Assembly (NCBI GenBank): GCA_009841265.1
Contig: VXMB01000009.1
Coordinates: 1,725,235 to 1,789,234, forward strand
Reading direction: 5' to 3'
Origin: Gemmatimonadota bacterium
GTDB taxonomy: Bacteria; JAAXHH01
Length of the DNA stretch: 64,000 nucleotides
The notes under the pieces: model-generated
The model's input: only the letters and a program-made list of their open reading frames with translations
Told to the model about the DNA's origin: nothing
The model's database searches: none
Part shown: positions 8,225 to 22,324 of the stretch, one piece after another
Layout: each line of letters starts with the position of its first letter
Position numbering within the stretch: the first letter of the stretch is position 1
Translations under genes and position numbers: made by a program

Positions 8225-9751
8225 CTACTGGGCCATATCGTCCCGCAGGCCGTACTTATCGATCAGGTAGATCAACGTGGCGATGGACGCACCGCCCAGT
8301 TCCAGCTCCCGGCGGTTTACGGCTTCAAAGACGTCGGTGGGCGCGTGATGGTAGTCGAACGCCCGTTGCGAGTCGGGGTTGAACCCGATGGTCGGGGTAC
8401 CCGTCTCCCTGCGGAGCGGACCGATATCGGCGCCGCCGCCGCCCCTATTGATGTAGGAGATCGTGTTCTGGGGAAACAGGGGCAGCCACGACCGGAAGCG
8501 TTCAATGACGTCATCGTCCGCAGACACGCCGAATCCCCGGGGGCTGAATCCGCCCGCGTCGCTTTCGAGGGCGATCAGGTGATCCTCGCCCGTTTCCTTC
8601 GCCACCTCGGCGTACTTGAGACCGCCGCGGAGGCCGTTTTCCTCGTTCATGAACAGGACGGCCCGGATGGTGTGGCGGGGCCGGATGCCCAGCTTCTGGA
8701 AGGTCCGCAGCACGCCGATGGAATGGACCACGCCCGCGCCGTCGTCGTGGGCGCCTTCAGACACGTCCCACGAGTCGAGATGACCGCCCACCAGGATGAT
8801 CTCGTCCGGCCGTTCGCTGCCCCGGATCTCGCCGATCACGTTATGCGAAAGGGCGTCGGGGTGCCACTTGCTGTCCAGGCGCATGTAGAGCATGGCTTCG
8901 GGCTGCTCCTCGAGCGCCCGTTCCAGGCGGTCGGCGGACTGGTAGCCCAGGGCCGCCGCGGGGATGCGCTCCACGTCTTCGAGATAGCGCAGTCCGCCGG
9001 TGTGAGGCGCATCGCCGAAGTCCGAACCGGCCGACCGGATCACTACGCCCACGGCGCCGAACCTGGCCGCCTGGGACGGTCCGGCGGTCCGCTGGTCCAC
9101 CGCTCCGCCGTAGCCGGGGCCCGTGGCAATCACCGTCTGGTCGAAGCGCCGGTTGTAGAAGACGATCTTCCCTTCAACGGCCTCGCGGCCGAGTTCTTCC
9201 ACTTCTTCCAGGGAGTGGACTACCACGACGGGCGCCGTGAGCCCCACCGGAGCGGTCGGCACCGATCCCCCGATGGCCAGGGCGGTCAGCTCGATCATGC
9301 CTTCGTTGACGTTGACGATCCGCACCTGCTCCGGTTCGCCCCGTTCCCAGTGGGGCACCATGACTTCCTGCAGGTAGACCCGGTCGAATCCGTAGCCTTC
9401 CATCACCTCTTTTGCCCATACTACGGCGCGTTCGGCGCCTTCCGAACCGCTGAGGCGCGGTCCGATATTCTTGCTCAGGTCTTCCAGGAGGTAGTACATC
9501 TCTCCGGAAGTCAGCCGTTCGCTGAAGATCGCGGTGACCGTTTTTTCGTCATCGGTCTGCCCGCGGGCCTCGCCCGGTAAGGCCGTCGAAAGGGCCAGTG
9601 AAAGCGTCACCGAAACGGCCAGCGAGAAGGACAGGGTGAGCATTGGGACGCGCGTCCTGAAGCTGCGTGGGCCGACGCGGTGCGGGCTGAAGCTGCGTGG
9701 GCCGACGCGGTGCGCGAGACCTGGCAGTGATCCGGTAATAGCGGACAGCAT
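8225..9751 (-). CDS. M28-family Zn peptidase (carboxypeptidase Q-like, PA domain), exported
   Basis: GPRLSGS, GGHLDSWD, GAHDDGAG, NEENGLRG, ESDAG, YHHAPTD; ATG 9751 preferred over 9790. Confidence 0.88.
   Translation of the reverse strand: MLSAITGSLPGLAHRVGPRSFSPHRVGPRSFRTRVPMLTLSFSLAVSVTLSLALSTALPGEARGQTDDEKTVTAIFSERLTSGEMYYLLEDLSKNIGPRLSGSEGAERAVVWAKEVMEGYGFDRVYLQEVMVPHWERGEPEQVRIVNVNEGMIELTALAIGGSVPTAPVGLTAPVVVVHSLEEVEELGREAVEGKIVFYNRRFDQTVIATGPGYGGAVDQRTAGPSQAARFGAVGVVIRSAGSDFGDAPHTGGLRYLEDVERIPAAALGYQSADRLERALEEQPEAMLYMRLDSKWHPDALSHNVIGEIRGSERPDEIILVGGHLDSWDVSEGAHDDGAGVVHSIGVLRTFQKLGIRPRHTIRAVLFMNEENGLRGGLKYAEVAKETGEDHLIALESDAGGFSPRGFGVSADDDVIERFRSWLPLFPQNTISYINRGGGGADIGPLRRETGTPTIGFNPDSQRAFDYHHAPTDVFEAVNRRELELGGASIATLIYLIDKYGLRDDMAQ
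9657..9714. repeat. Two-copy 30-bp-period repeat in M28 N-terminal extension
   Basis: ctgaagctgcgtgggccgacgcggtgcg at 9657 and 9687 (HRVGPRSF x2). Confidence 0.85.
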
Positions 9752-9865
9752 GTAGACCTCCGTGTTGATATGGAAAGGGACCGCCCCCACCCATGGCCGG
9801 GCGGCCTTGCTTGATTTAAATTGTTTGATACGAACTGATTGATTCGAAGCGTTCAGTGCAGACGA

Positions 9866-10381
9866 CTACCGCGTCAGTTCCCAGCCCAGGTGGGCAATCT
9901 CCGGCGCGATCAGTTTCTCCCAGGCCAGTTCCACCGCGGCCGGGGAGCCGGGCGTGGAGATGACCACCGTGTTGCGGTACACGCCAGCGGTGGCGCGGGA
10001 CAACATGGATGCGGCACCGACCTGTTCGTAGCTGAGCATGCGAAAAAGCTCGCCGAAACCGGTCAGCGGCTTTTCCAATTTACGGTGCAGCACGTCGAAG
10101 GTCCGGTCTCTCTTCGAGATGCCGGTGCCCCCGTTGAAAATGACGATCTGGACGTCATCGCCGGTACTCGCCTCCAGGGCGGCTTCGACCTGGTCTGGTT
10201 CATCCTGGATCAGGTGATAGCCGGCGACCCGGTGGCCCGCTTCCTCAATGCGTGTCCGGAGGTAATTCCCGTTGATGTCCGTTTCCGGCGTGCGGGAATC
10301 GCTGACGGTTACCACGGCAACGGCCAGGGGTCCGAGCTCGGCCGCCTGGGACTTGTGGGATGAAGTGCTCTTGGACGACAT
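9866..10381 (-). CDS. moaB: MogA/MoaB molybdenum cofactor biosynthesis protein
   Basis: [40 protein letters not shown]. Confidence 0.9.
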
Positions 10382-10392
10382 GAGGCCGGATG

Positions 10393-10632
10393 CTACAGCA
10401 CGTCCTGCAGCCGCAGTCCCTGCTTCTTCAGGAAGGGCATCAGTCCAATCTTCGTGACCGTCCGCAAGGCGCTGACGGACATCTTGATGCGCACCGTGCG
10501 GCCGAGTTCGGGCACGTAGATACGCTTCAACTGAAGATTGGGATATTGACGCCGCTTGGTCTTGTTATGAGCGTGGGATATGTTGAAGCCGACCAGGGGC
10601 CCTTTTCCGGTCAACTTGCATTTTCTGGACAT
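10393..10632 (-). CDS. rpmB: 50S ribosomal protein L28 (no CxxC pairs)
   Basis: [27 protein letters not shown]. Confidence 0.95.
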
Positions 10633-10655
10633 GAGGTCAGCCTCCAGGAACGACT

Positions 10656-10817
10656 TTACCGCGTTTCCCGGTACATGACGTGCCGCCGCAGCGTGGGATC
10701 GTACTTCTTGAGTTCGACGCGGGCGGTCGTATTACGCCGGTTCTTCTTCGTGTAGTAGCAGTGCGCGCTTTCCGTGCTCTTGAGTTTCACCAGTTCACGG
10801 TTCTTGCTCTTGGCCAT
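10656..10817 (-). CDS. rpmG: 50S ribosomal protein L33 (no CxxC pairs)
   Basis: Not in ORF track; manual translation [53 protein letters not shown]; SD AGGAG. Confidence 0.95.
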
Positions 10818-10875
10818 GCTGTACTCCTAAAGCGAGCCCATCTTTTAAATGCCGGTTCTACCAATCAGGCGTTCA

Positions 10876-10904
10876 AATTTAAGGGGCGCGTCCGCCGAAA
10901 TCAA
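10876..10904 (-). promoter_or_regulatory. Putative sigma70 promoter of rpmG-rpmB
   Basis: TTGATT-17 bp-TAAATT on minus strand. Confidence 0.5.
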
Positions 10905-10982
10905 GGAAATAAAACAAGACCGGCCATGCTTTGGTCGTTCGTGATGGCTGGTGCGGTTCGTCCGTGATGGCTGGCTGCCGGT

Positions 10983-11377: not shown

Positions 11378-13657
11378 TCAAAGATCGAACAGGTAGGCCG
11401 GCTTGACGATCAAGGTACGATCCAGCGGGTCGCCGAGCAGGGCTTCCGTGGCGTCCCCGTTGTCGCGCCGCTCGTTGTACACGACGTAGACGTTGCTGCC
11501 CGGACTGATGATGTAGTTGAACCGGAAATTCGACACGAACCGGTCCTGGTTCGTATCCCACTGTACCAGCGCGTTGAGGGACACATCGGGCGAGAAGGAA
11601 TAGCTGGTCCGGACGCCGAACAGATGGGCCGTGACGTCCCGCTCCCTGTTTCCGTTATCGGTGAGCGTCACGTCGTTGAGCTCGTACCGAGGACCGATGG
11701 TGAATTTCGAACCGGCGCGCAGTCCGCCCTCGAGATTCAGCGAACGCCGGTTCCCATTGATGTACTGGCCGAGGATGAGCTGGAAATCGCCGAATACGGG
11801 CTTGCTCAGGTTCGTCGTGTAATGCATGCGCGAAGACGCGTCCGTGTAGTTTCCCGCGGGGAGCTTGATGCCCAGAATCGGGCGGGTGCTTTCACTGATC
11901 CTGCGGTAGGCGCGGTCCAAAGTGATCCCGGCCTGCTCGCCGCCGGTGAAGAACAGCTCCCAGTGGTAGTGCTCCCGCCGGGTCAGCTGCGTGCCGTCGT
12001 CGCCGAATGTGGCGGACAGCACGATATGGGGGAAGTACCGGCGGACGATGCTGTGGGTGGGTTCGGGCGTGAAGAACGCACGAGCCGAGACCTCGTGGAA
12101 TCCGCCGAAATTACGGGCCAGGCTCCGGCGGCTGAAGAAGCCCATGCCGGGATTGAAGAACTCGGACACGCCCATGTACAGGCCCTCGAACTGCCAGAGT
12201 GGACCGTTCCAGCGCGACCACAGCCGTCCCGCGAAGCCCGATTCGCTTTCCTCGCCTGCCTGGTAAGTGGTTCCGGCCAGGAACCCGCTGACGGCCAGCT
12301 TGGGACCGATGGCCAGGTTCAAGTCGCCGCCGACCGCCCGGTTGTAGTCGCCGCCGCCGACCCGCTGGTTAGTGACGATGAAACCCACGTTGGATTTCTC
12401 ACCCACGTCCTGGCTGATCCGCGCCACGGCGTAGATGTTGTCCTCGAGCTTGGTTTCGCCGAACCGCTCGTCGCCCGTGCGCATGAGCAGCAGGCCCAGG
12501 TTCGTGCGTCCGGCCTTGCCCGTCAGGCGGCCGCCGCCGGTGATCGGCACCTGCCTCAGCGCGCCGGTATTATCGCGCGCCAGGCCGACGTTGCGGCTGT
12601 AGAAGAGTTCCGTCTCCCGGGCCACGCCGAAGCGGAACAGTCCGCCGTTCTCCAGGAAGAAGGCACGTTTTTCGGGGAAGAACAGGTTGAACTGCGTAAG
12701 GTTGACCTGCGCGTCGTCCACTTCCACCTGGGAGAAGTCCGTGTTGTAGGTCAGGTCGAGGGACAGGTTGTTGGTCAGGCCGTACTTCACGTCCACCCCG
12801 CCGTCGAAGTCTTCGTCCCGCGTCGAAGGGCCGGGCTCGTAGGTCCACGTGGCCCCGCCCAGGGAGTACGGCGTAACCTGCAGGTAACGGTGGTCGTGCC
12901 GCGTGAGGTTCATGCCCGACAGCGTGCCGGCCACCGACACCTGGGAGATGTTAAAGGGACGGATGACGGGCGCCCAGAAGGACTGTTCGTTGCGGCGGCG
13001 GATCTGGCGCTCCAGGTTGATCCCGAAATCGACGTCGTCCCCGGTCTCGAAGCGCAGCGTGCTCCAGGGAATGGCCATCTCGGCGTACCACCCCTCTTCG
13101 TTCCGGGAGGTGTATACGTCCCACACGCCGTTCCAGTCCGTCAGGATGTTGGTATTGAAGCGGCCTTCCGAACGGCCCTCGTTGCGCACCTGGGCGTCAT
13201 AGCGGGCGCCGTCCGGGTTGGTGGCGAAGAGAATGCCGTTCTGCCGGTCCATGAACGTGTCCAGGATGATCTGGAAGTAGTCGTCGTCCGCCAGGTCGCC
13301 GTCCCGCGCCATCTGGGTGGCAATGATCTGGGAGGGGTCCGAGTCGTAGGCCCAGACGCCGATGTACATCGTCTGCTCATCGTAGAGGACCCGCACCTCG
13401 GTCCGCTCGGACGCCGGCTGGCCTTCGTCGGGGCGTTGCTGGGTGAAGCCGCTGGCGGCCAGAGCGTTCTGCCAAATATCCTCGTCCAGGACGCCGTCCA
13501 TGTGCAACGCTTCCAGAATGCGCAGCGGGACGATCTCCCGCCCCTGTGCCGACACGGAGCCAGCGGTCAGCATGGTCTGCATAGCCAGAAGGGCGGCCAG
13601 CAGGACAGCGAAGCAGAAGGGGGGCAATGTGTGCGGGGATGTACAAACACGGTACAT
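11378..13657 (-). CDS. DUF5916-type protein (CBM9-like N-domain + outer-membrane beta-barrel)
   Basis: DGVLDE, WYAEMAIPW, LDLTYNTDFSQVEVD, FFPEKRAFFLE, FYSR; ends in aromatic C-terminus. Confidence 0.8.
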   Translation of the reverse strand: MYRVCTSPHTLPPFCFAVLLAALLAMQTMLTAGSVSAQGREIVPLRILEALHMDGVLDEDIWQNALAASGFTQQRPDEGQPASERTEVRVLYDEQTMYIGVWAYDSDPSQIIATQMARDGDLADDDYFQIILDTFMDRQNGILFATNPDGARYDAQVRNEGRSEGRFNTNILTDWNGVWDVYTSRNEEGWYAEMAIPWSTLRFETGDDVDFGINLERQIRRRNEQSFWAPVIRPFNISQVSVAGTLSGMNLTRHDHRYLQVTPYSLGGATWTYEPGPSTRDEDFDGGVDVKYGLTNNLSLDLTYNTDFSQVEVDDAQVNLTQFNLFFPEKRAFFLENGGLFRFGVARETELFYSRNVGLARDNTGALRQVPITGGGRLTGKAGRTNLGLLLMRTGDERFGETKLEDNIYAVARISQDVGEKSNVGFIVTNQRVGGGDYNRAVGGDLNLAIGPKLAVSGFLAGTTYQAGEESESGFAGRLWSRWNGPLWQFEGLYMGVSEFFNPGMGFFSRRSLARNFGGFHEVSARAFFTPEPTHSIVRRYFPHIVLSATFGDDGTQLTRREHYHWELFFTGGEQAGITLDRAYRRISESTRPILGIKLPAGNYTDASSRMHYTTNLSKPVFGDFQLILGQYINGNRRSLNLEGGLRAGSKFTIGPRYELNDVTLTDNGNRERDVTAHLFGVRTSYSFSPDVSLNALVQWDTNQDRFVSNFRFNYIISPGSNVYVVYNERRDNGDATEALLGDPLDRTLIVKPAYLFDL

Positions 13658-13661
13658 CTTG

Positions 13662-16010
13662 CTATTCCTCCATGGGTTGCCCGAACGGCACGGACAGGCT
13701 GACTGTAATGTTCCGACCTGGATCGTCGGTAAAATAGCGGAACCGGCTCAGGTAGTCCCGGTAGCGCTTGTTGAACAGATTGTGTACGCCGAACTGCATG
13801 CGGACGGGCTGGTCGGCCACGGCCAGCTCCGCGTGAAGCGACACGTCGAAGAGGTTGTAGCCGGCTGGCGGATCCGCAAAGTCGATGCCTTCGGGATAAT
13901 CCTCCTGCCGCAGGACGAAGCGGCCTTCAAAACCAATCCCGGCTTCCAGCAGGCGCCCGGCGGTGGGCAGCCGGAACTCCAGGCCGGTGATCAACCGGGT
14001 GGGCGGCATCTGGTACAGGGGTTGGTTATCCACTGTGTTTCGTCCACGGACGATCGAGGCGGAAATGTAGGTACCCACGTACCGTGTCAGTTCGTACTCC
14101 AGGTATCCGTCCAATCCCTGGATCACCGCGTCCGACTGGACATAGGTAAATTTGGGGAACGCACCCCGAATTGTCAACACAAGATCGCCCGCCGGCAGCA
14201 GCGAGATGAAGTTCCGGTAACTCGATCTGAAGAACCCCAGTTCGCCGTGGCCCCGGTCCCCCCTGTACCTCAGGGTGAGATCCGTGTTCACGCTCGATTC
14301 CGTGTCCAGTTCCTTGTCTCCGATCTCGAACTGCGCCGTACCGTGATGAACGCCATAGCTGTACAACTCGTTCACCCCGGGTGGACGCCAGGCCCTCCCG
14401 ATGTTGGCGGCGACGGCCAGGGCCGGGGTCAACTCGCGGATCAGGCCGACAACCCCGGTCACGTTGCGGTAGGTGAAGATCCCTCCCTCGACAATCTCGG
14501 TGGCGCGCCGGCCTTCGTTCGAGTAGACCTCCGCCCAGCGGTAGTCGTACCGCAGGCCTGTTTCTACCGTAGTCTTTCCCTTCGTCCAGGATTCCAGGGC
14601 GAATACGCCGGAACTGTAGGCCTGGAAGTCGGGAATGAGGAATCCCGTGCTGAACCGCTCGTTCCGCTGACGCATGCCGCTGGCGCCGATCTTTCCGTAC
14701 CAGTTACCGAAGTTCCGGTGGTGGAAGATCACTTCGCCGCTGTGGGTCTGCAATCCAAGATCGAACCCGGGGCGTGTGGGTGCGGCGCCGCTCCGGGTGG
14801 CGTCCCACTCCTCGCGCCGGTTGTATTGCTGTCCGTACCGCAGTTCGAGATTGCCCATCCCCTCGAAACGTACCAGGGATCGAACGGACAAGAGATCGTG
14901 GTCCACCCGTTGGCGCGGATTGCCGATATCGTAGGTAAATTCGCCCGTGAACAGTGGGTCGCCCCGCTCGATGGCCCGTTTCAGGTCCGTGGTGTTACCG
15001 ATGTGCGCGCCTTTGTAGATCCCCAGCCAGGTTCCGAAATGACTGAAATATGCCTCCGTGTCCATCCGGTCGGTCGTATAACCCAGTGCCACGGAGTAAT
15101 TGCGTTCGTCGAATCCGGAATTGCGTATGACGTGCTTCGGCGCCCGGGCGTCGCCCGCCCGGCGAAGACTCCCCTGCACCCGCCACTTGAGTCCGGGCAG
15201 GCGGTGAAGCGCTCCCTGCAGGAGGAGGGAAGCCGCCCCCTGCTTGTTGTTGGAAAAGAGATTCGTGTTGAGCCGGCCACCCACCCCTGGTTCCACGGGC
15301 AGCTCCGGCGGTTCGACGCGGATGACGCCGCCGATGGCGCCGACGCCGTACTGCACGCCGGCGGCGCCCTTGAGCACCTCGATGCGGGCCGGGGAAAAAG
15401 GATCGATCTCCGGGGCGTGGTCTCCGCCCCACTGCTGTCCTTCCTGGGTAACACCGGCGTTGAGTACCAGCACCCGGGCGCTATGCACTCCGCGCACCAC
15501 GGGCTTCGAGATGGCGGGGCCCGTGGTCAGGGTGGATACGCCCGGCAGGGACTCCAGCGTCTCACCCAGCGTCTGGCCCCGGCGTTCTTCCAGTGCGGAC
15601 AGGGGCAGGACGAGAACGGACTGGCTGGATCCGGTGAGTTCGCCCGCAAGGTCCCGGTCGCCCGTGACGGTGACCTCATCACCCATCAGGATCTCCGGCT
15701 CCATGCTGACTTCGAGCACGGGAGACCTGTTTTCGGTAACGTGTATCTCGCTTTGGACCGTCCGGTAGCCGATAAACCGGAATTCGATCGTGTGGCGGCC
15801 CTGTGGTACGTTTTCGAGACGGAATACGCCTTCTTCGTCTGTAAATGTACCGATTTCGAGCACGGGCAAAACTACGGTCACCGCCGGCAACGGTTCGCCG
15901 CGCTCACTGAGCACCTTGCCGCTCACTGTGGCGGCCCGTGCCGCTGCCGGAAGTACAAGGAAGAACACGGCGATCGCCAGGATGGCGCACCGTACATTCG
16001 TTGCTTTCAT
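13662..16010 (-). CDS. TonB-dependent receptor, cassette copy 1 (likely metal uptake)
   Basis: Signal peptide, CarboxypepD-like domain, plug (QQWGGDHAPEID, IEVLKG), NLFNKRYRDYLSRFRYF C-terminus; ATG 16010 aligns with copy 2. Confidence 0.92.
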   Translation of the reverse strand: MKATNVRCAILAIAVFFLVLPAAARAATVSGKVLSERGEPLPAVTVVLPVLEIGTFTDEEGVFRLENVPQGRHTIEFRFIGYRTVQSEIHVTENRSPVLEVSMEPEILMGDEVTVTGDRDLAGELTGSSQSVLVLPLSALEERRGQTLGETLESLPGVSTLTTGPAISKPVVRGVHSARVLVLNAGVTQEGQQWGGDHAPEIDPFSPARIEVLKGAAGVQYGVGAIGGVIRVEPPELPVEPGVGGRLNTNLFSNNKQGAASLLLQGALHRLPGLKWRVQGSLRRAGDARAPKHVIRNSGFDERNYSVALGYTTDRMDTEAYFSHFGTWLGIYKGAHIGNTTDLKRAIERGDPLFTGEFTYDIGNPRQRVDHDLLSVRSLVRFEGMGNLELRYGQQYNRREEWDATRSGAAPTRPGFDLGLQTHSGEVIFHHRNFGNWYGKIGASGMRQRNERFSTGFLIPDFQAYSSGVFALESWTKGKTTVETGLRYDYRWAEVYSNEGRRATEIVEGGIFTYRNVTGVVGLIRELTPALAVAANIGRAWRPPGVNELYSYGVHHGTAQFEIGDKELDTESSVNTDLTLRYRGDRGHGELGFFRSSYRNFISLLPAGDLVLTIRGAFPKFTYVQSDAVIQGLDGYLEYELTRYVGTYISASIVRGRNTVDNQPLYQMPPTRLITGLEFRLPTAGRLLEAGIGFEGRFVLRQEDYPEGIDFADPPAGYNLFDVSLHAELAVADQPVRMQFGVHNLFNKRYRDYLSRFRYFTDDPGRNITVSLSVPFGQPMEE

Positions 16011-16050
16011 CAGGAAATACTCCAAGCTCGCATTGACGGGAAAAGGCCGC

Positions 16051-16088
16051 GGCCGTGTCCGGGCTGCGAATTGGACACGGCCGTGTCC
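16051..16088 (-). promoter_or_regulatory. 10-bp stem hairpin between lipoprotein and TBDR copy 1
   Basis: ggccgtgtcc (16051-60) pairs with ggacacggcc (16073-82); followed on minus strand by gcggcc-tttt. Confidence 0.45.
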
Positions 16089-16091
16089 GTA

Positions 16092-16751
16092 CTATGACCG
16101 CACTTCCACTTCGAAGGTCACTTCGATATCCGTCTCATCACTCGGCGTCACGCCGTCCTTGGGTCCGGCATCGTAATGACTCTGAGAGACCCGGAACTGA
16201 CCGTTCCGTGCGTTAGACGGGACCGTAAGCGTGAATTTGAGTCCGACGGGATGATCAGCGCCCGTGTTCGTCACGTAGTCGGATTCCTTGTCCGCGTAGG
16301 CGACGGTGGCCGGTGCAAATCCCCCGAGGGTTTCAAAGAACAGCTGGTGGACTTCGGCTTCCTCCCTGATCTCTTCGGTGATATCCTCCGGCGGGCTTTC
16401 CAACTCGTTCAACTCCTGTATCATGCCGTCGTAAACTGTACCCGCGTCCACGACGATTCTGTCCACGACCGGTGCGTTGCCGCCTTCACCGTCGAGGTCC
16501 TGGAACTGCACGGTGAGCGGAGATCCCCCGCCCTGGGGCGTAAGCGTGATCTTGAGCGTCGTGATGAGCTCTACTTCACCCGGTCCGTGGCCATGATCGT
16601 CGTCGTGATCGTCGTGGTCATCGTCATGTGCGTCCGGCTCGTCCGGACCCATTGGATTGGAGTCATTGTCGTCTGCGCAGGAAAACGTCAGCGCGGCAGC
16701 CAACATCGCGGCGGTCATTACGGACAGTAAGTTCCATCGGAATTTCAACAT
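16092..16751 (-). CDS. His/Asp-rich lipoprotein, cassette copy 1
   Basis: Lipobox LTFS-C, acidic ADDND, HDDDHDDDHDDDHGHG tract, conserved ELITTL...DLDGEGGN...EAEVHQLFF core. Confidence 0.85.
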   Translation of the reverse strand: MLKFRWNLLSVMTAAMLAAALTFSCADDNDSNPMGPDEPDAHDDDHDDHDDDHGHGPGEVELITTLKITLTPQGGGSPLTVQFQDLDGEGGNAPVVDRIVVDAGTVYDGMIQELNELESPPEDITEEIREEAEVHQLFFETLGGFAPATVAYADKESDYVTNTGADHPVGLKFTLTVPSNARNGQFRVSQSHYDAGPKDGVTPSDETDIEVTFEVEVRS

Positions 16752-17040
16752 TTTCGGCTTCTCTTCCTTTGCTGAGTTGCGTCAAGTACGTGAGCTGCTT
16801 CTTCGATCGTAAACTGATCCTTCAGTGCCTGGAACTCGGCATCTCGATGTTCCAATCTCTCGACTTCGATAAAAGGCCCCTACGGCCATCGTGCGCGTGC
16901 ATCGACCCGGCTGATCCCGGTGCTGCTCGCACGGCGAAGCGCGTGAGCAGGTTCCGCGATCGGCGGATCTGCGCCGGTCCAGATTACCCGCACCGAGACT
17001 GCAGGTTCCGTTACGGACATCGGTGCTGACCGATGCGAGT

Positions 17041-17132
17041 GAACGGCCCGAACGGTCTGAACGGTCTGGACGGACCGAACGGTCTGAACGGTCTGGACGG
17101 TCTGGACGGTCTGGAAGACCTGGAGGTCTGGA
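17041..17132. repeat. Tandem array of nine 9-bp units (G(A/G)ACGGTCT consensus) in cassette-1 leader
   Basis: gaacggccc gaacggtct gaacggtct ggacggacc gaacggtct gaacggtct ggacggtct ggacggtct ggaagacct. Confidence 0.9.
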
Positions 17133-17216
17133 TTTACAAGCCAGCGATGTCCGGCATGGGTCAAGGTCCGCGCCTGATGGATTCAGGCGTTCGTCCGGAG
17201 CATCCGGGCTAGCAGG

Positions 17217-17486
17217 TCAGGGAAGGGGCGGTGCGCGGTTTCTGTGCTGCTTAACCTGAATTCGAGGGTGACCGGGCTGCGATACACCGGCCGCAAAGCC
17301 GACGATATCGTAGTCCGGGAGGGTAGGAGATGCATGCTCAAGCACCGCGGTGAACGCGGCGGCGCCAAGGCAGAACTGGCAGTGTTCCACATGCCCGGCT
17401 TCGGTCTCCAGCTCATCGCAGTCGTGCGGGGGATGCGCAAAATACACGGCAAACGCGACGGCGAAGGATAGCGTGAGGAGTTTCAT
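17217..17486 (-). CDS. DUF2946-like leader ORF with HCxxC and C-terminal RAPP, copy 1
   Basis: 89 aa; hydrophobic N-terminus, HCQFC (35-39), NRAPPLP end; conserved paralog at 20988. Confidence 0.85.
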   Translation of the reverse strand: MKLLTLSFAVAFAVYFAHPPHDCDELETEAGHVEHCQFCLGAAAFTAVLEHASPTLPDYDIVGFAAGVSQPGHPRIQVKQHRNRAPPLP

Positions 17487-17558
17487 GGGAGACCCGACAC
17501 CAAGTGGCTTGATCTATCAAAGAAATGGAACTGTTTCAACGAAATACCAGTCGCGCGA

Positions 17559-17586
17559 ATTAAAACGGTGAGCGCTGGCTTGTCAA
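17559..17586 (-). promoter_or_regulatory. Putative promoter of cassette 1
   Basis: Perfect TTGACA (17586-17581) followed by TTTAAT/TTAATT at 16-17 bp. Confidence 0.4.
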
Positions 17587-17593
17587 TCGGTTT

Positions 17594-19942
17594 CTATTCT
17601 GACATGGCCTGTCCGAAGGGTATGGACATGCCGAAAGTGACGTTGCGGCCCGGATTGTCGATGTAGTACCTGAAACGGCTCAGGTAGTCCCGGTACCGCT
17701 GGTTGAACAGGTTGCGAACGCCGAACTGCACGCGCACGGGCTGGTCGGCCACGGCTATTTCAGCGTGCAGGTCCAGGTCGAAGAGCTCGTAGCCGGCCGG
17801 CGGGTCCGCATAGTCGATGCCTTCGGGAAAGTTGTCCTGCCTCAAGACGAAACGGCCTTCGAACCCAATCCCGGCGTCGAGGAGCCGCCCGCCGGTGGGC
17901 AGGTGGAAACTCAAGCCGGCGATGAACCGGGTGGCCGGCATCTGGTACAGGGGCTGGCGTTCCACCGTATTTCGTCCCCGGACGAACGAAGCGGACAAAT
18001 GGGTGTCGATGTGCGGCGTCAGTTCGTATTCCAGGTACCCGTCGAATCCCTGGATCACCGCGTCGGACTGGACGTAGGTGAATTTGGGAAATGCGCCCCT
18101 GATGGTTAAGACGAGATCGTCCGCCGGCAACAGGGAGATGTAGTTGCTGTATTGGGAACGGAAAAGCCCCAGTTCGCCGCGGCCCCGGTCCCCCTGGTAC
18201 CGCAAGGTCAGGTCCGTGTTCAGGCTCGATTCCGTGCCCAGTTCCTTGTCCCCGATCTCGAACTGCGCGGTGCCGTGGTGGACGCCGTGGCTGTACAATT
18301 CGTTCACCCCTGGCGGCCGCCAGGCCCGGCCGACGTTGGCGGCGACGGCCGTGTTCGGCGTCAACTCGTAGATCAGGCCGAGCACACCGGTCATGTTGCT
18401 GTAGGTGAAAACGCCGCCATCCACGATCTCGGTGGCGCGGCGACCCGTGTTCGAGTAGATCTCCATCCACCGGTAGTCGTAACGCAGTCCGGTCTCCACC
18501 GTCGTTTTTCCCTTCGTCCAGGACTCCAGGGCGAACACGCCGGCACTGTAGGCCAGAAAGTCGGGAATCAGGAAACCGGTACTGAAGCGCTTGTTCTCCT
18601 GGCGCATGCCGCTGACGCCGACTTTTCCGTACCAGTTTCCGAAGTTGCGGTGCTGGAAGATCGCGTCGCCGCTGTGGGTCTGTAGCCCCTGGGAGAAGCC
18701 GGGTCTGGCCACCCCGCCGCTCCTGGCGTGGGAGTCCCATTCCTCCCGCCGGTTGTATTGTTGTCCGTACCGGAGTTCGAGATTGCCCTTCCCTTCAATA
18801 CGTACAAGAGATCGAACGGAAAGGAGATCGTGGTCCACCCGCTGGCACGGATTATCGATTTCGTAGGTGAAGGAGCCCACGATGGTCGGCTCGCCGCGCT
18901 CGATGGACCTTCGCAGGTCCGTGGTGTTGCCGATGTGGGCCCCTTTGAAGATCCCGATCCAGGTACCGAAATGGCTGAAGTAGGCTTCGGTGTCCACGCG
19001 GTCCGACGTATAGCCCAGCGCCATCGAATAGTCCCGCTCGTCGAACCCGGAATTCCGTATGACGTGGACCGGCGCGTGGGCGTCGCCCGCCCGGCGCAGG
19101 CTACCCTGGACCCTCCACTTGAGTCCCCCAAGCTGCCGCAGAGCGCCCTGCAGGAGCAGAGAGCCCGCGCCTTGCCGGTTGTTGGAGAAGAGGTTCGTGT
19201 TGATCCGGCCGCCCATGCCCGGCCTCGTGGGCAGTTCCGGCGGTTCGATGCGGATGACGCCGCCGATGGCGCCGGCGCCGTATTGCACGCCGGCGGCGCC
19301 CTTGAGCACCTCGATGCGGGCCGGGGAAAAGGGATCGATCTCCGGGGCGTGGTCTCCGCCCCACTGCTGTCCTTCCTGGGTAATGCCGGCGTTGAGTACC
19401 AGCACCCGGGCGCTGTGGACGCCTCGCAGCACAGGTTTCGATACGGCCGGCCCCGTAGTCAGGGAGGTTACGCCTGGCAGGGATTCCAGTGTCTCGCCCA
19501 CCGTCTGTCCCCGCCGCTCTTCCAGGTCGGAGAGGGGGAGGACGAGGACGGACTGGCTGGACCCGGTGAGTTCGCCCGCCAGGTCCCGGTCGCCGGTGAC
19601 GGTGACCTCCTCGCCGAGCAGCGCCTCAGGCTGCATGCTGACTTCAAGCACCTTCGGCTCGGTTTCGGAGACGACCACCTCGCTTCGGATCGTTCGGTAA
19701 CCGACGAACCGGAACTCGATCGTGTGCCTGCCCACCGGCACGTTCTCCAGGCGAAACCGGCCTTCCTCGTCGGAGAACGCTCCGATCTCGAGATCGGGCA
19801 GGATAACGGTCACCGCCGGCAGTGGCTCTCCAGTCTCGTTCAGCACCTTTCCGCTCACCGTGGCGGCATGCGCTTCGACCGGAAGTACCAGACAGGACAC
19901 GGCTATCGCCAGTATGACGCTCAGGGTTTTCGTTGCATTCAT
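17594..19942 (-). CDS. TonB-dependent receptor, cassette copy 2
   Basis: Close paralog of 13662-16010 with long identical peptide blocks; ATG 19942 (MNATKTL). Confidence 0.92.
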   Translation of the reverse strand: MNATKTLSVILAIAVSCLVLPVEAHAATVSGKVLNETGEPLPAVTVILPDLEIGAFSDEEGRFRLENVPVGRHTIEFRFVGYRTIRSEVVVSETEPKVLEVSMQPEALLGEEVTVTGDRDLAGELTGSSQSVLVLPLSDLEERRGQTVGETLESLPGVTSLTTGPAVSKPVLRGVHSARVLVLNAGITQEGQQWGGDHAPEIDPFSPARIEVLKGAAGVQYGAGAIGGVIRIEPPELPTRPGMGGRINTNLFSNNRQGAGSLLLQGALRQLGGLKWRVQGSLRRAGDAHAPVHVIRNSGFDERDYSMALGYTSDRVDTEAYFSHFGTWIGIFKGAHIGNTTDLRRSIERGEPTIVGSFTYEIDNPCQRVDHDLLSVRSLVRIEGKGNLELRYGQQYNRREEWDSHARSGGVARPGFSQGLQTHSGDAIFQHRNFGNWYGKVGVSGMRQENKRFSTGFLIPDFLAYSAGVFALESWTKGKTTVETGLRYDYRWMEIYSNTGRRATEIVDGGVFTYSNMTGVLGLIYELTPNTAVAANVGRAWRPPGVNELYSHGVHHGTAQFEIGDKELGTESSLNTDLTLRYQGDRGRGELGLFRSQYSNYISLLPADDLVLTIRGAFPKFTYVQSDAVIQGFDGYLEYELTPHIDTHLSASFVRGRNTVERQPLYQMPATRFIAGLSFHLPTGGRLLDAGIGFEGRFVLRQDNFPEGIDYADPPAGYELFDLDLHAEIAVADQPVRVQFGVRNLFNQRYRDYLSRFRYYIDNPGRNVTFGMSIPFGQAMSE

Positions 19943-20039
19943 GGGAAACCCTCTGGCGCGCGATTCCACGAACAGATCACTCTGCAAGCAACTCACACTG
20001 CATTAAGACTACTTAACGTGTTAAATGCTACCAGACGTA

Positions 20040-20690
20040 TTAACGCACGAGGACTTCGAAGGTCACGTCGATGTCCGTCTCGTCGCTCTGGTTCACGCCG
20101 TCCTTGGGTGCTTCATCAAAGTGACTCAGAATGATGCGTAACTGGCCGTTCTGCGCGTTGTCCGGCACGGAAAGGGTAAACGCGAGGCCAACGGGATGGT
20201 CCGCTCCCGAATTCGACACGTAATCGGATTCCTTGTCCGCATACTCGACGGTAGCCGCTGAGAATCCCCCGAGGGTCTCAAAGAAGAACTGGTGGGCCTC
20301 AGCTTCCTCTTCCACCTCCTCGGTGATGTTCTCCGGCGGGGTTTCGGTCTCGTTCAATACCTCGACCATACCGTTGTAATCCGTTCCGGAAGTTACGGCC
20401 AGCACGTCCACGACCGGCTCGTTGCCGCCTTCACCGTCCAGGTCACGGAATCGCACGGTTATCGGCGATCCTCCGCCACTGGGCGTAAGGGTGATCGCAA
20501 GCGTCGTGATGAGTTCTTCTTCGCCCGGTCCGTGGTCGTGGTCGTCGTCATGGTCGTCTTCCTCATGTTCTTCCGGATCGGAAGGACCGGTGGGACTGTC
20601 GTCGTCATCGGCGCAGCCGAACGTCAACGCGGCGGAGACGAATACGGCGGCGGTCAGGATGGTCAGTACGTTCCAGTGATGCCTGAACAT
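20040..20690 (-). CDS. His/Asp-rich lipoprotein, cassette copy 2
   Basis: Lipobox LTFG-C, ADDDD, HEEDDHDDDHDHG tract; paralog of 16092-16751. Confidence 0.85.
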   Translation of the reverse strand: MFRHHWNVLTILTAAVFVSAALTFGCADDDDSPTGPSDPEEHEEDDHDDDHDHGPGEEELITTLAITLTPSGGGSPITVRFRDLDGEGGNEPVVDVLAVTSGTDYNGMVEVLNETETPPENITEEVEEEAEAHQFFFETLGGFSAATVEYADKESDYVSNSGADHPVGLAFTLSVPDNAQNGQLRIILSHFDEAPKDGVNQSDETDIDVTFEVLVR

Positions 20691-20987
20691 ATCGAGCTTC
20701 TCCTCAATGTGTTGCGTAGCGTGGGTTGAATTGATGCTGCTGTGTGAATCAAACGGCTATTGCGACTATGCACTTGCCAACGGTCTCGATCCGGGCCGGC
20801 GTCAGGACCGGTGCGACCATGATCGGTGCTACCTCGACCGGGATCAGCGCGGCCAGCGACGTGACCGTCTTCAAATCCTATGCCGAGCCGGTGAACGGCC
20901 TGGACGAAATGAATCGGTTAAGTTTGTTATGGTCGCGGACCGTGCCGAGTGGATTTGGCGATCGGCCGGAGCCTGCGGAGTGTCAGG

Positions 20988-21257
20988 TCAGGGAAGAGGC
21001 GGTGCGCGGTTGAGGTGCTGCGCGTTACGTGTCTGGGGGTACCCGGTTTCAGGCGCGCCGGCCACGAAGCCGACCAACGCGTGGTCCGGGGGCGAATCAG
21101 GCGAATCTTCTAGCACCGCGGAGGATGCGGCACCTAAAAGACACCCCTGGCAGTGGTCTGCATTCGCGGCGTCCGATTCCAGTCCATGACAGTGATGCGG
21201 CGGACTGGTGAATAGAAAGGCGAATACCAGGACGAAAGAGAGCGTAAGCAATTTCAT
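20988..21257 (-). CDS. DUF2946-like leader ORF with HCxxC and C-terminal RAPP, copy 2
   Basis: 89 aa from ATG 21257: MKLLTLSF...PPHHC...HCQGC...NRAPPLP. Confidence 0.85.
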   Translation of the reverse strand: MKLLTLSFVLVFAFLFTSPPHHCHGLESDAANADHCQGCLLGAASSAVLEDSPDSPPDHALVGFVAGAPETGYPQTRNAQHLNRAPPLP

Positions 21258-21335
21258 GCCGGACTCGTCACGCGGAAAACGGACCCATCGAATATGGTGC
21301 AATTTTCGAGATTTTTAGCTTGTTTCAGTCACGTA

Positions 21336-21364
21336 ATATTGCGCCAATTCAGCCGATTTGTCAA
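21336..21364 (-). promoter_or_regulatory. Putative promoter of cassette 2 with overlapping near-palindrome CGTAATATTGCG (21331-21342)
   Basis: TTGACA (21364-21359), 17 bp, CAATAT. Confidence 0.45.
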
Positions 21365-21393
21365 GTGATTTCGCGCCTTCGCACAATACGGAC

Positions 21394-21422
21394 TTGACAC
21401 GGACAGGGCCCCTTGTTATTAT
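21394..21422 (+). promoter_or_regulatory. Near-consensus sigma70 promoter of ABC operon
   Basis: TTGACA-17 bp-TATTAT with TGn extension. Confidence 0.65.
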
Positions 21423-21514
21423 CCGACGCCGCGAAAAAAGCAACGCGAAAAATGCGCGGACATCTGCTTTTAAACGCAAGAAAAGGAGCGAGAACAGGGG
21501 TGTCCGGGAAAACC

Positions 21515-22324
21515 ATGATCGAAGCGAAGGACCTATGCAAGTACTACGGTTCCTTCGTCGCCGTGCAAGACATCTCCTTTACCATACCCGAGGGCCAGAT
21601 CGTGGCCTTCCTCGGACCGAACGGCGCGGGCAAGTCCACGACGATGAAGATCCTCAGCGGCTACCTGGGCGCCAGCGCGGGCACCGCGGCCATCGCCGGA
21701 CTCGACGTGAGACGGGACCGCCTCTCCATGTCAAGGCGTCTTGGATACCTCCCGGAGAACGGTCCGCTGTACCAGAACATGACACCGCTGGAACTCCTGC
21801 GGTTCTTCGGCGAGGCCCGTGGTCTCGATCGACTCCGGCTGTCCGAGCGCCTGGATTACGTCATCGACCGGTGCAGCCTCCACGAAGCGCTCGAAAAACC
21901 CATCGACAAGCTTTCCCGGGGCAACAAGCAGCGGGTCGGTCTGGCGCAGGCCCTGCTCCACGACCCCGATGTGCTCATCATGGACGAACCGACCGCCGGG
22001 CTCGATCCCAACCAGATCCGGGACTTCCGCCAGGATATCCGGTTGCTCGGGCAGACCAGGACCATCCTGCTTTCCACCCACATCCTGCAGGAAGTGGACC
22101 TCATCGCCGACCGCGTTCTCCTGATCAACGAGGGCAGGATAGTCTTCGATGGCCCGCCTGCCGATCTGCGTCGCGGCGGATCGCTCGAAGCGTCTTTCCA
22201 CGCCCTTACCGGACACGAAGGGGAGGCGTCGAGTGGCGAGAGTGGCGTGAGTGGCGAGGCGGCGTCGAATGACGAAGCGGCGTCGGGTGGCGTGACCGGA
22301 CACGGCGAGGAGGCGGACGAATGA
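21515..22324 (+). CDS. ABC transporter ATP-binding protein (GldA-like)
   Basis: GPNGAGKST, LSRGNKQR, LIMDEPT, LSTH; low-complexity C-tail. Confidence 0.92.
   Translation: MIEAKDLCKYYGSFVAVQDISFTIPEGQIVAFLGPNGAGKSTTMKILSGYLGASAGTAAIAGLDVRRDRLSMSRRLGYLPENGPLYQNMTPLELLRFFGEARGLDRLRLSERLDYVIDRCSLHEALEKPIDKLSRGNKQRVGLAQALLHDPDVLIMDEPTAGLDPNQIRDFRQDIRLLGQTRTILLSTHILQEVDLIADRVLLINEGRIVFDGPPADLRRGGSLEASFHALTGHEGEASSGESGVSGEAASNDEAASGGVTGHGEEADE

What the first reader, a model, noticed from the sequence alone, without database searches (positions are those of the whole stretch)
13662..21257. Tandem duplication of a complete leader-lipoprotein-TBDR cassette
Seen: two about 3.7-3.8 kb units (13662-17486, 17594-21257) with the same order. 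Each has its own TTGACA promoter candidate, intact ORFs, many synonymous differences and unrelated intergenic spacers. Differences cluster in loops (DATRSGAAPTRPGFDL vs DSHARSGGVARPGFSQ; NPRQ vs NPCQ), His tracts and leader residues. Inference: an old, selected duplication giving two uptake systems tuned to different metals or metal complexes (Zn, Ni, Co, Cu).
Basis: partly seen in the sequence, partly recalled or inferred. Interest (0 to 1): 0.68.

Follow-up and report, generated by a model that had tools for sequence, protein, structure and literature searches.

The report
Duplicated metal-uptake cassette with stalling leaders
Two tandem, intact copies of a three-gene outer-membrane metal-uptake unit (ribosome-stalling sensor peptide, lipoprotein, zinc/copper-type receptor) sit side by side; the duplication is old and both copies are kept by selection, but nothing shows they take up different metals.

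Summary
On the minus strand, two cassettes (21257-17594 and 17486-13662) have the same gene order. Protein identity between copies is 53% for the leader, 67% for the lipoprotein and 81% for the receptor. Each cassette has its own conserved TTGACA promoter-like site.

The "leader" is a CruR/CutF-type upstream ORF: export signal, HCxxC, a 44-residue ruler and a C-terminal RAPP arrest motif. The receptor's nearest solved relatives are ZnuD (zinc) and OprC (copper). It keeps ZnuD's Asp-His and His ligands in both copies. The lipoprotein belongs to an unnamed family.

All 26 cassette-bearing congeners carry the cassette at the same locus. Five species carry both copies, always in the same order, and copies group by position, not by species. 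So the duplication predates those species, with later loss of either copy and exchange between species.

Both copies are under purifying selection (dN/dS 0.1-0.2). Differences do not concentrate in extracellular loops (20% vs 16%, p=0.35; dN/dS 0.15 in both). Only loops 3 and 4 are hot spots.

"Old, selected duplication" is supported. "Tuned to different metals" is not. The sensor peptides and spacers diverged most, so separate regulatory set-points are more likely.

The parts
21335..21364 (-). Promoter-like site of the upstream cassette (TTGACA, 18 nt, AATATT). It lies in the divergent region shared with the ABC ATPase gene.
   Evidence: 10 of 12 matches. The GAAAnCnnTTGACA block is conserved across the genus.
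20988..21257 (-). Leader 'up': 89-codon CruR/CutF-like upstream ORF. Features: hydrophobic N-terminus, HHC23HG, H35-C36-QG-C39, and NRAPPLP* at the C-terminus.
   Evidence: There are 44 residues from CxxC to RAPP. No Pfam hit.
20691..20987 (-). 297-nt untranslated spacer of the upstream cassette. The first ~60 nt are conserved in the genus; the rest is not alignable to the other copy.
   Evidence: (D5). No Rfam match.
20040..20690 (-). Lipoprotein 'up' (216 aa): lipobox Cys, Asp/Glu/His-rich tether with 4 His, Ig-like beta-sandwich.
17594..19942 (-). TonB-dependent transporter 'up': CarboxypepD_reg N-terminal domain, TonB box, plug and 22-strand barrel.
17559..17586 (-). Promoter-like site of the downstream cassette (TTGACA, 16 nt, TTTAAT). 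It starts 7 nt after the stop codon of the upstream TBDR.
   Evidence: Sequence. Conserved in all dn-type and single cassettes. No terminator-like hairpin between the units.
17217..17486 (-). Leader 'dn': 89-codon CruR/CutF-like upstream ORF. Features: HDC23DE, GH32VEH35-C36-QF-C39, and NRAPPLP*.
   Evidence: DUF2946 hit at 18.2 bits, E=0.0043, below the 23.7 cut-off.
16752..17216 (-). 465-nt untranslated spacer of the downstream cassette. It includes a 9-nt minisatellite (YCAGACCGT) at about 17041-17132.
   Evidence: (D4).
16092..16751 (-). Lipoprotein 'dn' (219 aa): lipobox Cys25, disordered Asp/His tether (HDDDHDDHDDDHGHG), beta-sandwich at 62-219.
13662..16010 (-). TonB-dependent transporter 'dn' (ZnuD/OprC-like fold). 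The DUF5916/CBM9 gene follows 4 nt downstream.
11378..13657 (-). DUF5916 plus CBM9-like gene, the conserved 3' neighbour. It is not part of the duplicated unit but is probably co-transcribed with the dn cassette.

Best explanation
The stretch holds two co-oriented tandem copies of a self-contained metal-cation uptake cassette, running from promoter to receptor stop codon.

Each cassette encodes three products.
1. An 89-residue exported leader peptide of the CruR/CutF kind. It has a Cys/His metal site (Cys23 and H-C36-x-x-C39), a 44-residue ruler and a C-terminal RAPP ribosome-arrest motif.
2. A lipoprotein of an unnamed family. It has an Asp/His-rich disordered tether and an Ig-like sandwich with invariant His/Asp/Glu. 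It is probably surface-exposed and hands metal to the receptor.
3. A TonB-dependent transporter whose nearest solved relatives are the free-metal transporters ZnuD and OprC. It keeps ZnuD's plug Asp-His and loop His ligands.

Inferred mechanism, by analogy with Bordetella CruR:
- When the metal is scarce, the ribosome stays stalled on RAPP and the long spacer, lipoprotein and receptor are transcribed.
- When metal binds the nascent Cys/His site, the stall is relieved and transcription (or translation) of the downstream genes is cut off.

Origin. The tandem arrangement arose once, before at least five species of this uncultured genus diverged. It arose either by in-situ duplication or by tandem capture of a diverged allele. 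Most species later kept only one of the two types, and cassettes were exchanged between species.

Selection and likely benefit. Both copies here are under purifying selection. The transporter's candidate ligand residues are identical, while the sensor peptides and spacers diverged most. So the two copies most likely import the same class of metal (Zn2+ slightly favoured, Cu possible). They would differ in when or how strongly they are switched on, that is in set-points or dosage, rather than in substrate.
For: Shown:
- Duplication and intact ORFs.
- Leader features: invariant C36, C39, R84, P86 and P87 across the 22 aligned leaders, with A85 nearly invariant. That alignment holds 19 leaders of the genus, a related family (G031), Flexithrix (Bacteroidota) and a third leader of this genome.
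- The CxxC-to-RAPP distance is 44 residues here (43-46 in the others). In CruR it is 45, and regulation tolerates +/-2 but not +5 (PMC9426467).
- The spacers after the leaders are long, 227-542 nt in all 30 cassettes, as described for cruR operons.
- 9 of 22 leaders give sub-threshold DUF2946 hits.
- TBDR: the best sequence hits in the PDB are ZnuD (4.5e-23) and OprC. The best fold hits are ZnuD (E 5e-37, TM 0.76-0.87), then OprC and heme receptors.
- ZnuD ligands Asp-99/His-100/His-499 (PMC4557270) align with D198/H199/H556. H199 and H556 are invariant in 42 homologs, and all three residues are identical in both copies.
- Lipoprotein: invariant lipobox Cys and 10 invariant acidic or His residues. 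The AF2 model has pLDDT 81, with a disordered tether and a beta-sandwich.
- Age: copies cluster by position in the TBDR, lipoprotein and leader trees. Paralog dS is 0.58-0.69 against rpoB dS of 0.08-0.44.
- Selection: dN/dS is 0.17-0.20 between TBDR paralogs and 0.05-0.25 between orthologs of each copy.
- Divergence rises towards the 5' end: TBDR about 80%, lipoprotein about 75%, leader about 60-70% nucleotide identity, and the spacers cannot be aligned.
- The triad of leader, lipoprotein and TBDR recurs in another family and in Flexithrix.

Inferred: the direction of regulation, Rho involvement, surface exposure of the lipoprotein, the metal's identity, and the set-point idea.
Against:
- Neither leader reaches Pfam's DUF2946 threshold.
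- No robust conserved RNA structure or clear C-rich rut site was found in the spacers. RNAalifold gave -1.96 kcal/mol, and spacer C/G is only 1.0-1.3.
- CutF works in the opposite direction to CruR, so the sign of regulation is open.
- The leader ligand sets do differ (HHCHG against HDCDE...GHxxH). The dn lipoprotein carries derived substitutions right next to invariant residues (positions 113, 137, 190, 210). The fixed N/S between the two clades is high (52:25 and 16:2). These points leave room for a change in selectivity.
- Most species do well with only one cassette, so the second copy may add little.
Confidence: 0.5

Rival explanations
1. One reading: after duplication the two cassettes specialised on different metals or metal complexes (for example Zn and Cu, or Ni/Co). 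Each leader would sense its own metal, and each lipoprotein/receptor pair would bind its own ligand.
For: - The leaders differ in potential ligands around Cys23 and before the CxxC (HHCHG...ADH against HDCDE...GHVEH).
- CutF-like leaders with different Cys/His sets are linked to different metals (PMC9973294).
- dn-specific derived substitutions in the lipoprotein lie next to invariant H135, H192, E116 and D208.
- There is a loop 4 indel and hot spot and a dn-specific Q431H.
- There is an excess of fixed non-synonymous differences between the clades.
Against: - The candidate metal ligands of the receptor and all invariant residues of the lipoprotein are identical in the two copies.
- Loops are not enriched for change.
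- Most fixed differences are conservative (V/L, V/I, A/G, N/D).
- In G019 and G027 both leaders are of the same HDC type, so leader type is not tied to cassette position.
- The fixed N/S excess is biased upward, because synonymous sites are saturated within the clades.
Confidence: 0.2
2. The two copies are functionally redundant. The second cassette is kept only for dosage, or is a transient state in a locus that keeps gaining and losing copies by recombination. There would be no functional difference between the copies.
For: - 20 of the 26 cassette-bearing congeners have a single cassette in the DNA held. These include close relatives of this genome with either type.
- The locus shows inter-species exchange. 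dn copies have a flat dS of about 0.3 whatever the rpoB distance, and G002 carries a distant TBDR allele.
- A 120-nt tract of 97-98% identity between the copies suggests gene conversion.
Against: - Both copies have stayed intact and under purifying selection since before species with rpoB dS of about 0.4 diverged.
- The two-copy state persists in at least three separate lineages, always in the same order.
- The copies have not been homogenised, apart from the short plug tract.
Confidence: 0.2
3. An origin rival, compatible with any of the functional readings. The pair did not arise by in-situ duplication followed by divergence. Instead, a diverged allele from another species of the genus was captured in tandem by recombination at the shared flanks.
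For: - Gene trees of the cassette conflict with the rpoB tree, and the three genes give partly different trees.
- dn-type copies are about equally distant (dS 0.26-0.42) from G000_dn in close and distant species.
- G000_dn against G025_dn has dS 0.21, while rpoB and the up copy have 0.08.
Against: - The up and dn clades are sister groups nested inside the genus (92 SH-aLRT).
- The junction is a clean promoter-to-stop unit.
- The order is always the same, and no mobility genes are nearby.
- These data cannot separate the two origins.
Confidence: 0.3

Closest known systems
CruR (Bp2923, DUF2946) of Bordetella pertussis, the upstream ORF of the cruR-bfrG-bp2921 operon (PMC9426467)
   Same: Both are small exported peptides encoded first in the operon, with a CxxC, a C-terminal RAPP 2-3 residues from the end and a 44-45-residue ruler. 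Both are followed by a long intergenic region and then a TonB-dependent transporter.
   Different: The leaders here are 89 aa, whereas CruR is longer (its RAPP lies at residues 139-142, three residues before its C-terminus). They score below Pfam's threshold. They carry an additional conserved Cys23 and His residues. They come from an uncultured FCB-group lineage rather than Proteobacteria. The next gene is a lipoprotein, not the receptor. The receptor has a ZnuD-type rather than a copper-type site. The metal and the Rho dependence are untested. Here the whole module is duplicated in tandem.
CutF of Rhodobacter capsulatus and the 'CutF-like' list of that paper (PMC9973294)
   Same: Both have a signal peptide, a Cys/His metal motif and a C-terminal proline-rich stalling motif. 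That survey already noted many Bacteroidota members and TonB-type neighbours, and that not all members are copper-specific.
   Different: CutF enhances expression of the downstream gene when copper is present, by unfolding an RBS-masking stem-loop. No such conserved stem-loop was found here.
ZnuD of Neisseria meningitidis (PDB 4RDR/4RDT/4RVW; PMC4557270)
   Same: ZnuD is the best sequence and fold match among solved structures. The plug-apical Asp-His and the loop His that bind Zn in ZnuD are conserved by alignment.
   Different: Identity is about 20%. The NCBIfam ZnuD score is 108-130 bits against a cut-off of 950. The transporter here has an N-terminal CarboxypepD_reg domain. It lacks ZnuD's His/Asp-rich metal-sensing loop 3. 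It is partnered with a lipoprotein. Zur control is not evident.
OprC of Pseudomonas aeruginosa (TIGR01778; PDB 6FOK and others), which is preceded by a cruR homolog
   Same: Both are free-metal TonB-dependent transporters behind a CruR-type leader. OprC is the second-best structural match.
   Different: OprC's CxxxM-HxM copper site is absent. The aligned plug loop reads GGDHAPE here. The TIGR01778 score is 76 bits against a cut-off of 472.

Membership tests
CruR / DUF2946 (PF11162) copper-responsive upstream ORF | Score above Pfam's gathering threshold | tested here: not met
   The dn leader scores 18.2 bits (E=0.0043) against a cut-off of 23.7. The up leader has no hit. 9 of 22 related leaders hit at E<=0.1, best 7.9e-4.
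CruR / DUF2946 (PF11162) copper-responsive upstream ORF | Conserved CXXC motif | tested here: met
   C36 and C39 are present in both copies and invariant in the 22 aligned leaders. One congener (G018_up) has SxxC.
CruR / DUF2946 (PF11162) copper-responsive upstream ORF | C-terminal RAPP arrest motif a few residues before the stop | tested here: met
   Both copies end in NRAPPLP*. R84, P86 and P87 are invariant. The arrest itself was not tested.
CruR / DUF2946 (PF11162) copper-responsive upstream ORF | Fixed spacing between CXXC and RAPP (45 residues +/-2) | tested here: met
   The spacing is 44 residues in both copies, 43 in Flexithrix, 44 in G031 and 46 in the third leader of this genome.
CruR / DUF2946 (PF11162) copper-responsive upstream ORF | N-terminal export signal; first gene of the operon; long intergenic region before the next gene | tested here: met
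   The N-terminus MKLLTLSFAVAFAVYFA is hydrophobic (by eye; no signal-peptide predictor was run). The spacers are 465 and 297 nt here and 227-542 nt in the genus.
CruR / DUF2946 (PF11162) copper-responsive upstream ORF | Copper-dependent relief of stalling with Rho-dependent termination | not testable with these tools
   This needs reporter, toeprint and bicyclomycin experiments.
ZnuD (NF038289) zinc piracy TonB-dependent receptor | Score above the NCBIfam cut-off | tested here: not met
   Scores are 108 and 130 bits against a cut-off of 950.
ZnuD (NF038289) zinc piracy TonB-dependent receptor | High-affinity Zn site Asp-99/His-100/Glu-340/His-499 | tested here: inconclusive
   Three of the four ligands align with D198, H199 and H556 (alignment). 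H199 and H556 are invariant in the family. The Glu-340 equivalent is not covered by the alignment.
ZnuD (NF038289) zinc piracy TonB-dependent receptor | His/Asp-rich metal-sensing extracellular loop 3 | tested here: not met
   Loop 3 (332-366) holds a single His and no His/Asp cluster.
OprC / TonB-copper (TIGR01778) | Score above the cut-off, and the CxxxM-HxM copper site | tested here: not met
   The score is 76 bits against a cut-off of 472. The plug loop that aligns with OprC's C-P-N-R-(M) reads G-G-D-H-A.
Heme/hemoglobin TonB-dependent receptors (TIGR01785) | Score above the cut-off | tested here: not met
   Scores are 158-160 bits against a cut-off of 317. The two facing His residues (plug and loop) are shared with this family and with ZnuD.
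SusC/RagA (TIGR04056) | Score above the cut-off, and an adjacent SusD-like partner | tested here: not met
   Scores are 66-72 bits against a cut-off of 368, with only the N-terminal 200 residues matching. The partner is a 219-aa beta-sandwich lipoprotein, not SusD.

The most novel reading that the evidence does not exclude
The genus maintains two recombining types of a nascent-peptide-gated metal-uptake cassette whose sensors have different ligand sets (H-H-C-H-G...CxxC against H-D-C-D-E...H-x-x-H-CxxC). In genomes that carry both in tandem, the two arrest peptides would read different metals (for example Zn and Cu) or widely separated concentrations. The matched lipoprotein/receptor pairs would have co-adapted to avoid cross-talk. 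This would be the first natural case of paralogous RAPP arrest-peptide sensors that diverged in selectivity. It would also be evidence that such sensors work for zinc-type receptors outside Proteobacteria.
Probability: 0.15. Interest if true: 0.6.

Novelty: new variant of a known kind. Interest (0 to 1): 0.4.

Why it matters
CruR/CutF-type ribosome-arrest metal sensors have been demonstrated only for copper, in two proteobacteria. Here the same design heads a ZnuD-like receptor and an uncharacterised lipoprotein family with 731 detectable homologs and no Pfam model. It occurs in an uncultured lineage whose genomes carry Latescibacterota and Gemmatimonadota labels.

The natural tandem pair gives two diverged sensors in one genome, with near-identical transporters behind them. 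That makes it a ready-made comparison for asking which residues of the nascent peptide set metal selectivity or threshold. The comparative data also show the locus as a recombination hot spot where either copy is repeatedly lost.

On the other hand, duplication of receptor cassettes is common. The kind of regulator is known. No evidence here shows different substrates.

Tried and rejected
- Rfam scan of 13000-22000 at E<=1: no hits, so no known riboswitch or leader RNA.
- Terminator scan: nothing between the two units.
- RNAalifold on the conserved ~60 nt after the leader stop: only -1.96 kcal/mol and one covarying pair. I do not claim a hairpin.
- Rut-like C>G bias in the spacers: weak, with C/G of 1.0-1.3.
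- Lipoprotein against Pfam, NCBIfam, PDB sequences and PDB folds: no family, and no fold match better than E=4e-3.
- Literature search for the lipoprotein's NCBI name ('type 1 periplasmic binding fold superfamily protein') together with TonB: no papers.
- Test of loop enrichment of differences: negative.
- McDonald-Kreitman-style count: significant, but I discount it. Synonymous sites are near saturation within the clades, which removes fixed synonymous differences.
- Stem-branch dN/dS through ancestral states: the machine does not offer ancestral sequences, and I did not try another route.
- Independent duplications in each species: rejected, because paralogs never group by species.

Full report
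**1. What is there**

All genes of interest are on the minus strand. Reading 5' to 3' on that strand:

- a promoter-like TTGACA/AATATT at 21364-21335;
- an 89-codon small ORF (21257-20988);
- a 297-nt gap;
- a 216-aa lipoprotein (20690-20040);
- a TonB-dependent transporter (TBDR, 19942-17594).

Seven bases after its stop codon a second TTGACA (17586-17581) begins, followed after 16 nt by TTTAAT. Then come:

- a second 89-codon ORF (17486-17217);
- a 465-nt gap;
- a 219-aa lipoprotein (16751-16092);
- a second TBDR (16010-13662).

A DUF5916/CBM9-like gene starts 4 nt after the second TBDR. An ABC ATPase gene runs divergently on the other side.

The repeat finder gives copy spacings of 3932, 3945 and 3771 nt. 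Protein identities are 81% for the TBDR (no gap in 784 residues), 67% for the lipoprotein and 53% for the small ORF. A unit-to-unit alignment shows about 80% nucleotide identity in the TBDR, about 75% in the lipoprotein and 58-75% in the small ORF. The spacers cannot be aligned except for about 60 nt after the small ORF's stop codon.

**2. What the parts are: the leader**

The small ORF has four features:

- a hydrophobic N-terminus;
- a conserved Cys23;
- an H-C36-x-x-C39 motif;
- the C-terminal sequence NRAPPLP*.

The dn copy gives a sub-threshold hit to DUF2946 (18.2 bits, cut-off 23.7). Nine of 22 related leaders do so as well.

DUF2946 is the family of CruR of Bordetella pertussis. CruR is an upstream ORF whose nascent chain stalls the ribosome on a C-terminal RAPP. 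The stall is relieved when copper binds its CxxC, and Rho then terminates transcription before the receptor gene bfrG (PMC9426467). In CruR the CxxC and RAPP are 45 residues apart, and regulation tolerates +/-2 but not +5 residues.

Here the distance is 44 in both copies. It is 44 in a related family (G031), 43 in Flexithrix dorotheae and 46 in a third such ORF elsewhere in this genome. In an alignment of 22 such leaders only M1, C36, C39, R84, P86 and P87 are invariant.

RAPP is a robust, EF-P-resistant arrest motif that is depleted from proteomes and enriched at the C-termini of small exported proteins (PMC12992588). CutF of Rhodobacter is a second studied case, and it works in the opposite direction. 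That paper's survey already listed many Bacteroidota members with TonB-type neighbours and noted that not all are copper-specific (PMC9973294).

**The receptors**

Each receptor has a CarboxypepD_reg N-terminal domain, a TonB box (EVTVTG), a plug and a barrel. All specific NCBIfam models score far below their cut-offs:

| Model | Score (bits) | Cut-off (bits) |
|---|---|---|
| Heme | 160 | 317 |
| ZnuD | 108-130 | 950 |
| TonB-copper | 76 | 472 |

Among solved structures the best sequence hits are ZnuD (4.5e-23) and OprC (5e-13). An AF2 model (pLDDT 79.5) matches ZnuD best (E 5e-37), followed by OprC and the heme receptors.

ZnuD binds Zn through Asp-99 and His-100 of the plug-apical loop, Glu-340 and His-499 (PMC4557270). 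In the HMMER alignment these positions fall on D198/H199 and H556 of the window's TBDR. H199, H556 and H557 are invariant in 42 homologs down to 46% identity. OprC's C-x-x-x-M in the same plug loop is not present. The receptor is therefore of the 'free metal ion, N/O-ligand' type, and both copies are identical at these positions.

**The lipoprotein**

It has no Pfam, NCBIfam or PDB relative. A database search gives 731 homologs. Their only names are 'hypothetical protein' and NCBI's uninformative 'type 1 periplasmic binding fold superfamily protein'.

The lipobox Cys is invariant. So are E61, D85, D87, E116, E127, E131, H135, D154, H192 and D208. AF2 (pLDDT 81) gives a disordered residue 26-60 tether, which here carries HDDDHDDHDDDHGHG, and a beta-sandwich with no significant fold match.

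The His content of the tether is labile: 0-8 His among congeners, and always a little higher in the dn copy than in the up copy of the same genome.

**3. History**

*Distribution.* The genome belongs to an uncultured genus. Its public MAGs are labelled Latescibacterota, Gemmatimonadota or just 'bacterium'. Of 27 other species, 26 have the lipoprotein. In every locus fetched that was not cut by a contig end, it lies in the same place, between the ABC ATPase and DUF5916.

*Two-cassette species.* Two full cassettes occur in G000 (this genome), G025, G018, G019 and G027. G014 has a second leader right after its TBDR, where the contig ends.

*TBDR tree.* All five 'up' copies plus two single-copy species form one clade (support 99). 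All five 'dn' copies plus eight single-copy species form its sister clade (support 100). Paralogs never group by species. The lipoprotein and leader trees agree on the dn clade, and they place the up-type with the remaining single copies.

*Species tree.* On an rpoB tree the two-cassette species lie in three separate places. Species that kept only up or only dn are interspersed among them.

*Dating.* Paralog dS is 0.58-0.69 for the TBDR, against rpoB dS of 0.08 (G025, G018) to 0.37-0.44 (G027, G019). So the tandem state is older than these species, and one or the other copy was lost many times.

*The history is not purely vertical.*
- dS of dn-type copies to G000_dn is 0.26-0.42 whatever the rpoB distance.
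- G000_dn against G025_dn has dS 0.21, where rpoB and the up copy have 0.08.
- G002, a close relative, carries a TBDR with dS above 1.1.
- The three genes give partly different trees.
- Hence there has been inter-species recombination at this locus. I cannot tell in-situ duplication from tandem capture of a diverged allele.
- A 120-nt plug tract (15325-15445 against 19257-19377) is 97-98% identical in this genome but 88% in G025, which suggests a short gene conversion.

**4. Selection and where the copies differ**

NG86 dN/dS between paralogs is 0.17-0.20 for the TBDR, 0.17-0.40 for the lipoprotein and 0.31-0.53 for the leader. Between orthologs of each copy it is 0.05-0.25 for the TBDR and lipoprotein. 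Neither copy is decaying.

I assigned 22 strands and 11 extracellular loops from the AF2 secondary structure. The two TBDRs then differ as follows:

| Region | Residues differing |
|---|---|
| Loop residues | 34 of 173 (20%) |
| Plug, strand and turn residues | 79 of 480 (16%) |
| Loop 4 | 46% |
| Loop 3 | 29% |
| Signal peptide | 44% |
| Loops 5, 7 and 8 | almost invariant |

The loop-versus-core difference is not significant (Fisher p=0.35). Pooled over five paralog pairs, dN/dS is 0.15 in loops, 0.15 in strands and 0.15 in the plug.

Of 43 positions fixed between the clades, 23 are derived in dn and 16 in up. Most are conservative.

In the lipoprotein, 16 positions are fixed. The dn state is the derived one at nearly all of them, including residues adjacent to invariant E116, H135, H192 and D208.

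A McDonald-Kreitman-style table gives an excess of fixed non-synonymous changes (52:25 against 476:816, and 16:2 against 210:221). I regard this as inflated, because synonymous sites are too variable within the clades to stay fixed. A stem-branch estimate needs ancestral states, which the machine does not offer.

The largest divergence is in the sensor peptide and its spacer. The dn leader reads HDC23DE...GH32VEH35CQFC. The up leader reads HHC23HG...NADH35CQGC. The outgroups have the HCHG form, so the dn form is derived. Leader type is not strictly tied to position, however: in G019 and G027 both leaders are of the HDC type.

**5. Regulatory elements**

The block GAAAnCnnTTGACA is conserved upstream of the leader in nearly all of the 30 aligned cassettes, whether up, dn or single. 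So the duplicated unit carried its promoter.

No terminator-like hairpin separates the units, so read-through from the up cassette into the dn leader is possible.

About 60 nt after each leader stop codon are conserved across the genus. RNAalifold finds no convincing shared structure there, and Rfam finds nothing.

**6. Mechanism proposed**

Shown: the anatomy, conservation, age and constraint described above.

Inferred by analogy with CruR:
- Under metal scarcity the ribosome stays arrested at RAPP.
- RNA polymerase then proceeds through the long spacer.
- The lipoprotein and receptor (and, for the dn unit, DUF5916) are made.
- Metal binding to the nascent Cys/His site releases the arrest and shuts the operon down.

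The sign could be reversed, as in CutF.

The metal is unresolved. I put it at about 45% Zn, 35% Cu and 20% other. The receptor site is ZnuD-like (Asp/His/His). The lipoprotein offers His and carboxylates. The leader offers Cys3 plus His. DUF2946 ORFs also head Zn/Cd efflux genes in Caulobacter (PMC4176598). All of this fits zinc at least as well as copper.

The ligand residues of the transport proteins are the same in both copies, and the sensors and spacers differ most. I therefore favour two set-points or dosage over two substrates.

**7. Comparison with what is known, and verdict**

The kind of regulator (CruR/CutF) and the kind of receptor (ZnuD/OprC-like) are known. Membership by curated thresholds fails for all named families, although the architectural features of CruR are all met. 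The lipoprotein family is undescribed.

The tandem duplication is real and old, and both copies are selected. But duplication of TBDR cassettes is ordinary, and the specific claim of different metals has no support. I rate it a new variant of a known kind, with moderate interest.

Noticed in passing
own genome, contig C12:138563-138859 (minus strand), outside the window: A third RAPP-ending leader. It has HDHDHDEEC, then CVPC, then 46 residues, then SRAPPA*. It heads an operon of an ABC ATPase, two ABC-2 permeases (one with DUF3526) and a MerC-like membrane protein. Caulobacter's Zur regulon pairs a TBDR with an ABC-2 system, which hints at zinc.
   Followed up: partly
window 17041-17132 (minus strand): A 9-nt minisatellite (YCAGACCGT, about 8 units) lies in the dn spacer. 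Copy number varies among congeners: 6 motif hits here, 2-3 in G025, G017, G027 and G003, and none in up-type spacers.
   Followed up: partly
window 15325-15445 against 19257-19377: A 120-nt tract in the plug region is 97-98% identical between the two TBDR copies, against a background of about 80%. The same tract is 88% identical in G025. This is probably a short, recent gene conversion. The plug's dS (0.40) is also lower than elsewhere.
   Followed up: partly
L052 (G018) 14656-14922: The upstream leader of G018 reads HSQGC: the first Cys of the CxxC is replaced by Ser. In CruR the SxxS mutant keeps expression but loses copper control. That cassette may therefore be constitutive, or this is an assembly error.
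   Followed up: no
L061 (G002) 8585-10933: G002 is a close relative by rpoB (dS 0.13). Its TBDR has dS of 1.1-1.2 to both copies here and groups with the distant G005. This is allelic replacement by inter-species recombination.
   Followed up: partly
L041 (Flexithrix dorotheae) 3005-6486: The same three components occur in a cultured Bacteroidota species, but in the order leader (HCNLC, 43 residues, SRAPP), TBDR, lipoprotein. It could serve as an experimental model.
   Followed up: partly
window 11378-13657 (minus strand): A DUF5916 plus CBM9-like gene starts 4 nt after the dn TBDR. It follows the cassette in all 24 genomes where the region is complete. It was not duplicated, and its function is unknown.
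   Followed up: no
window 20928-20987 and 17157-17216 (minus strand): About 60 nt directly after each leader stop codon are conserved across the genus in up, dn and single cassettes. No convincing consensus structure was found. It may be the pause, rut or ribosome-footprint region.
   Followed up: partly
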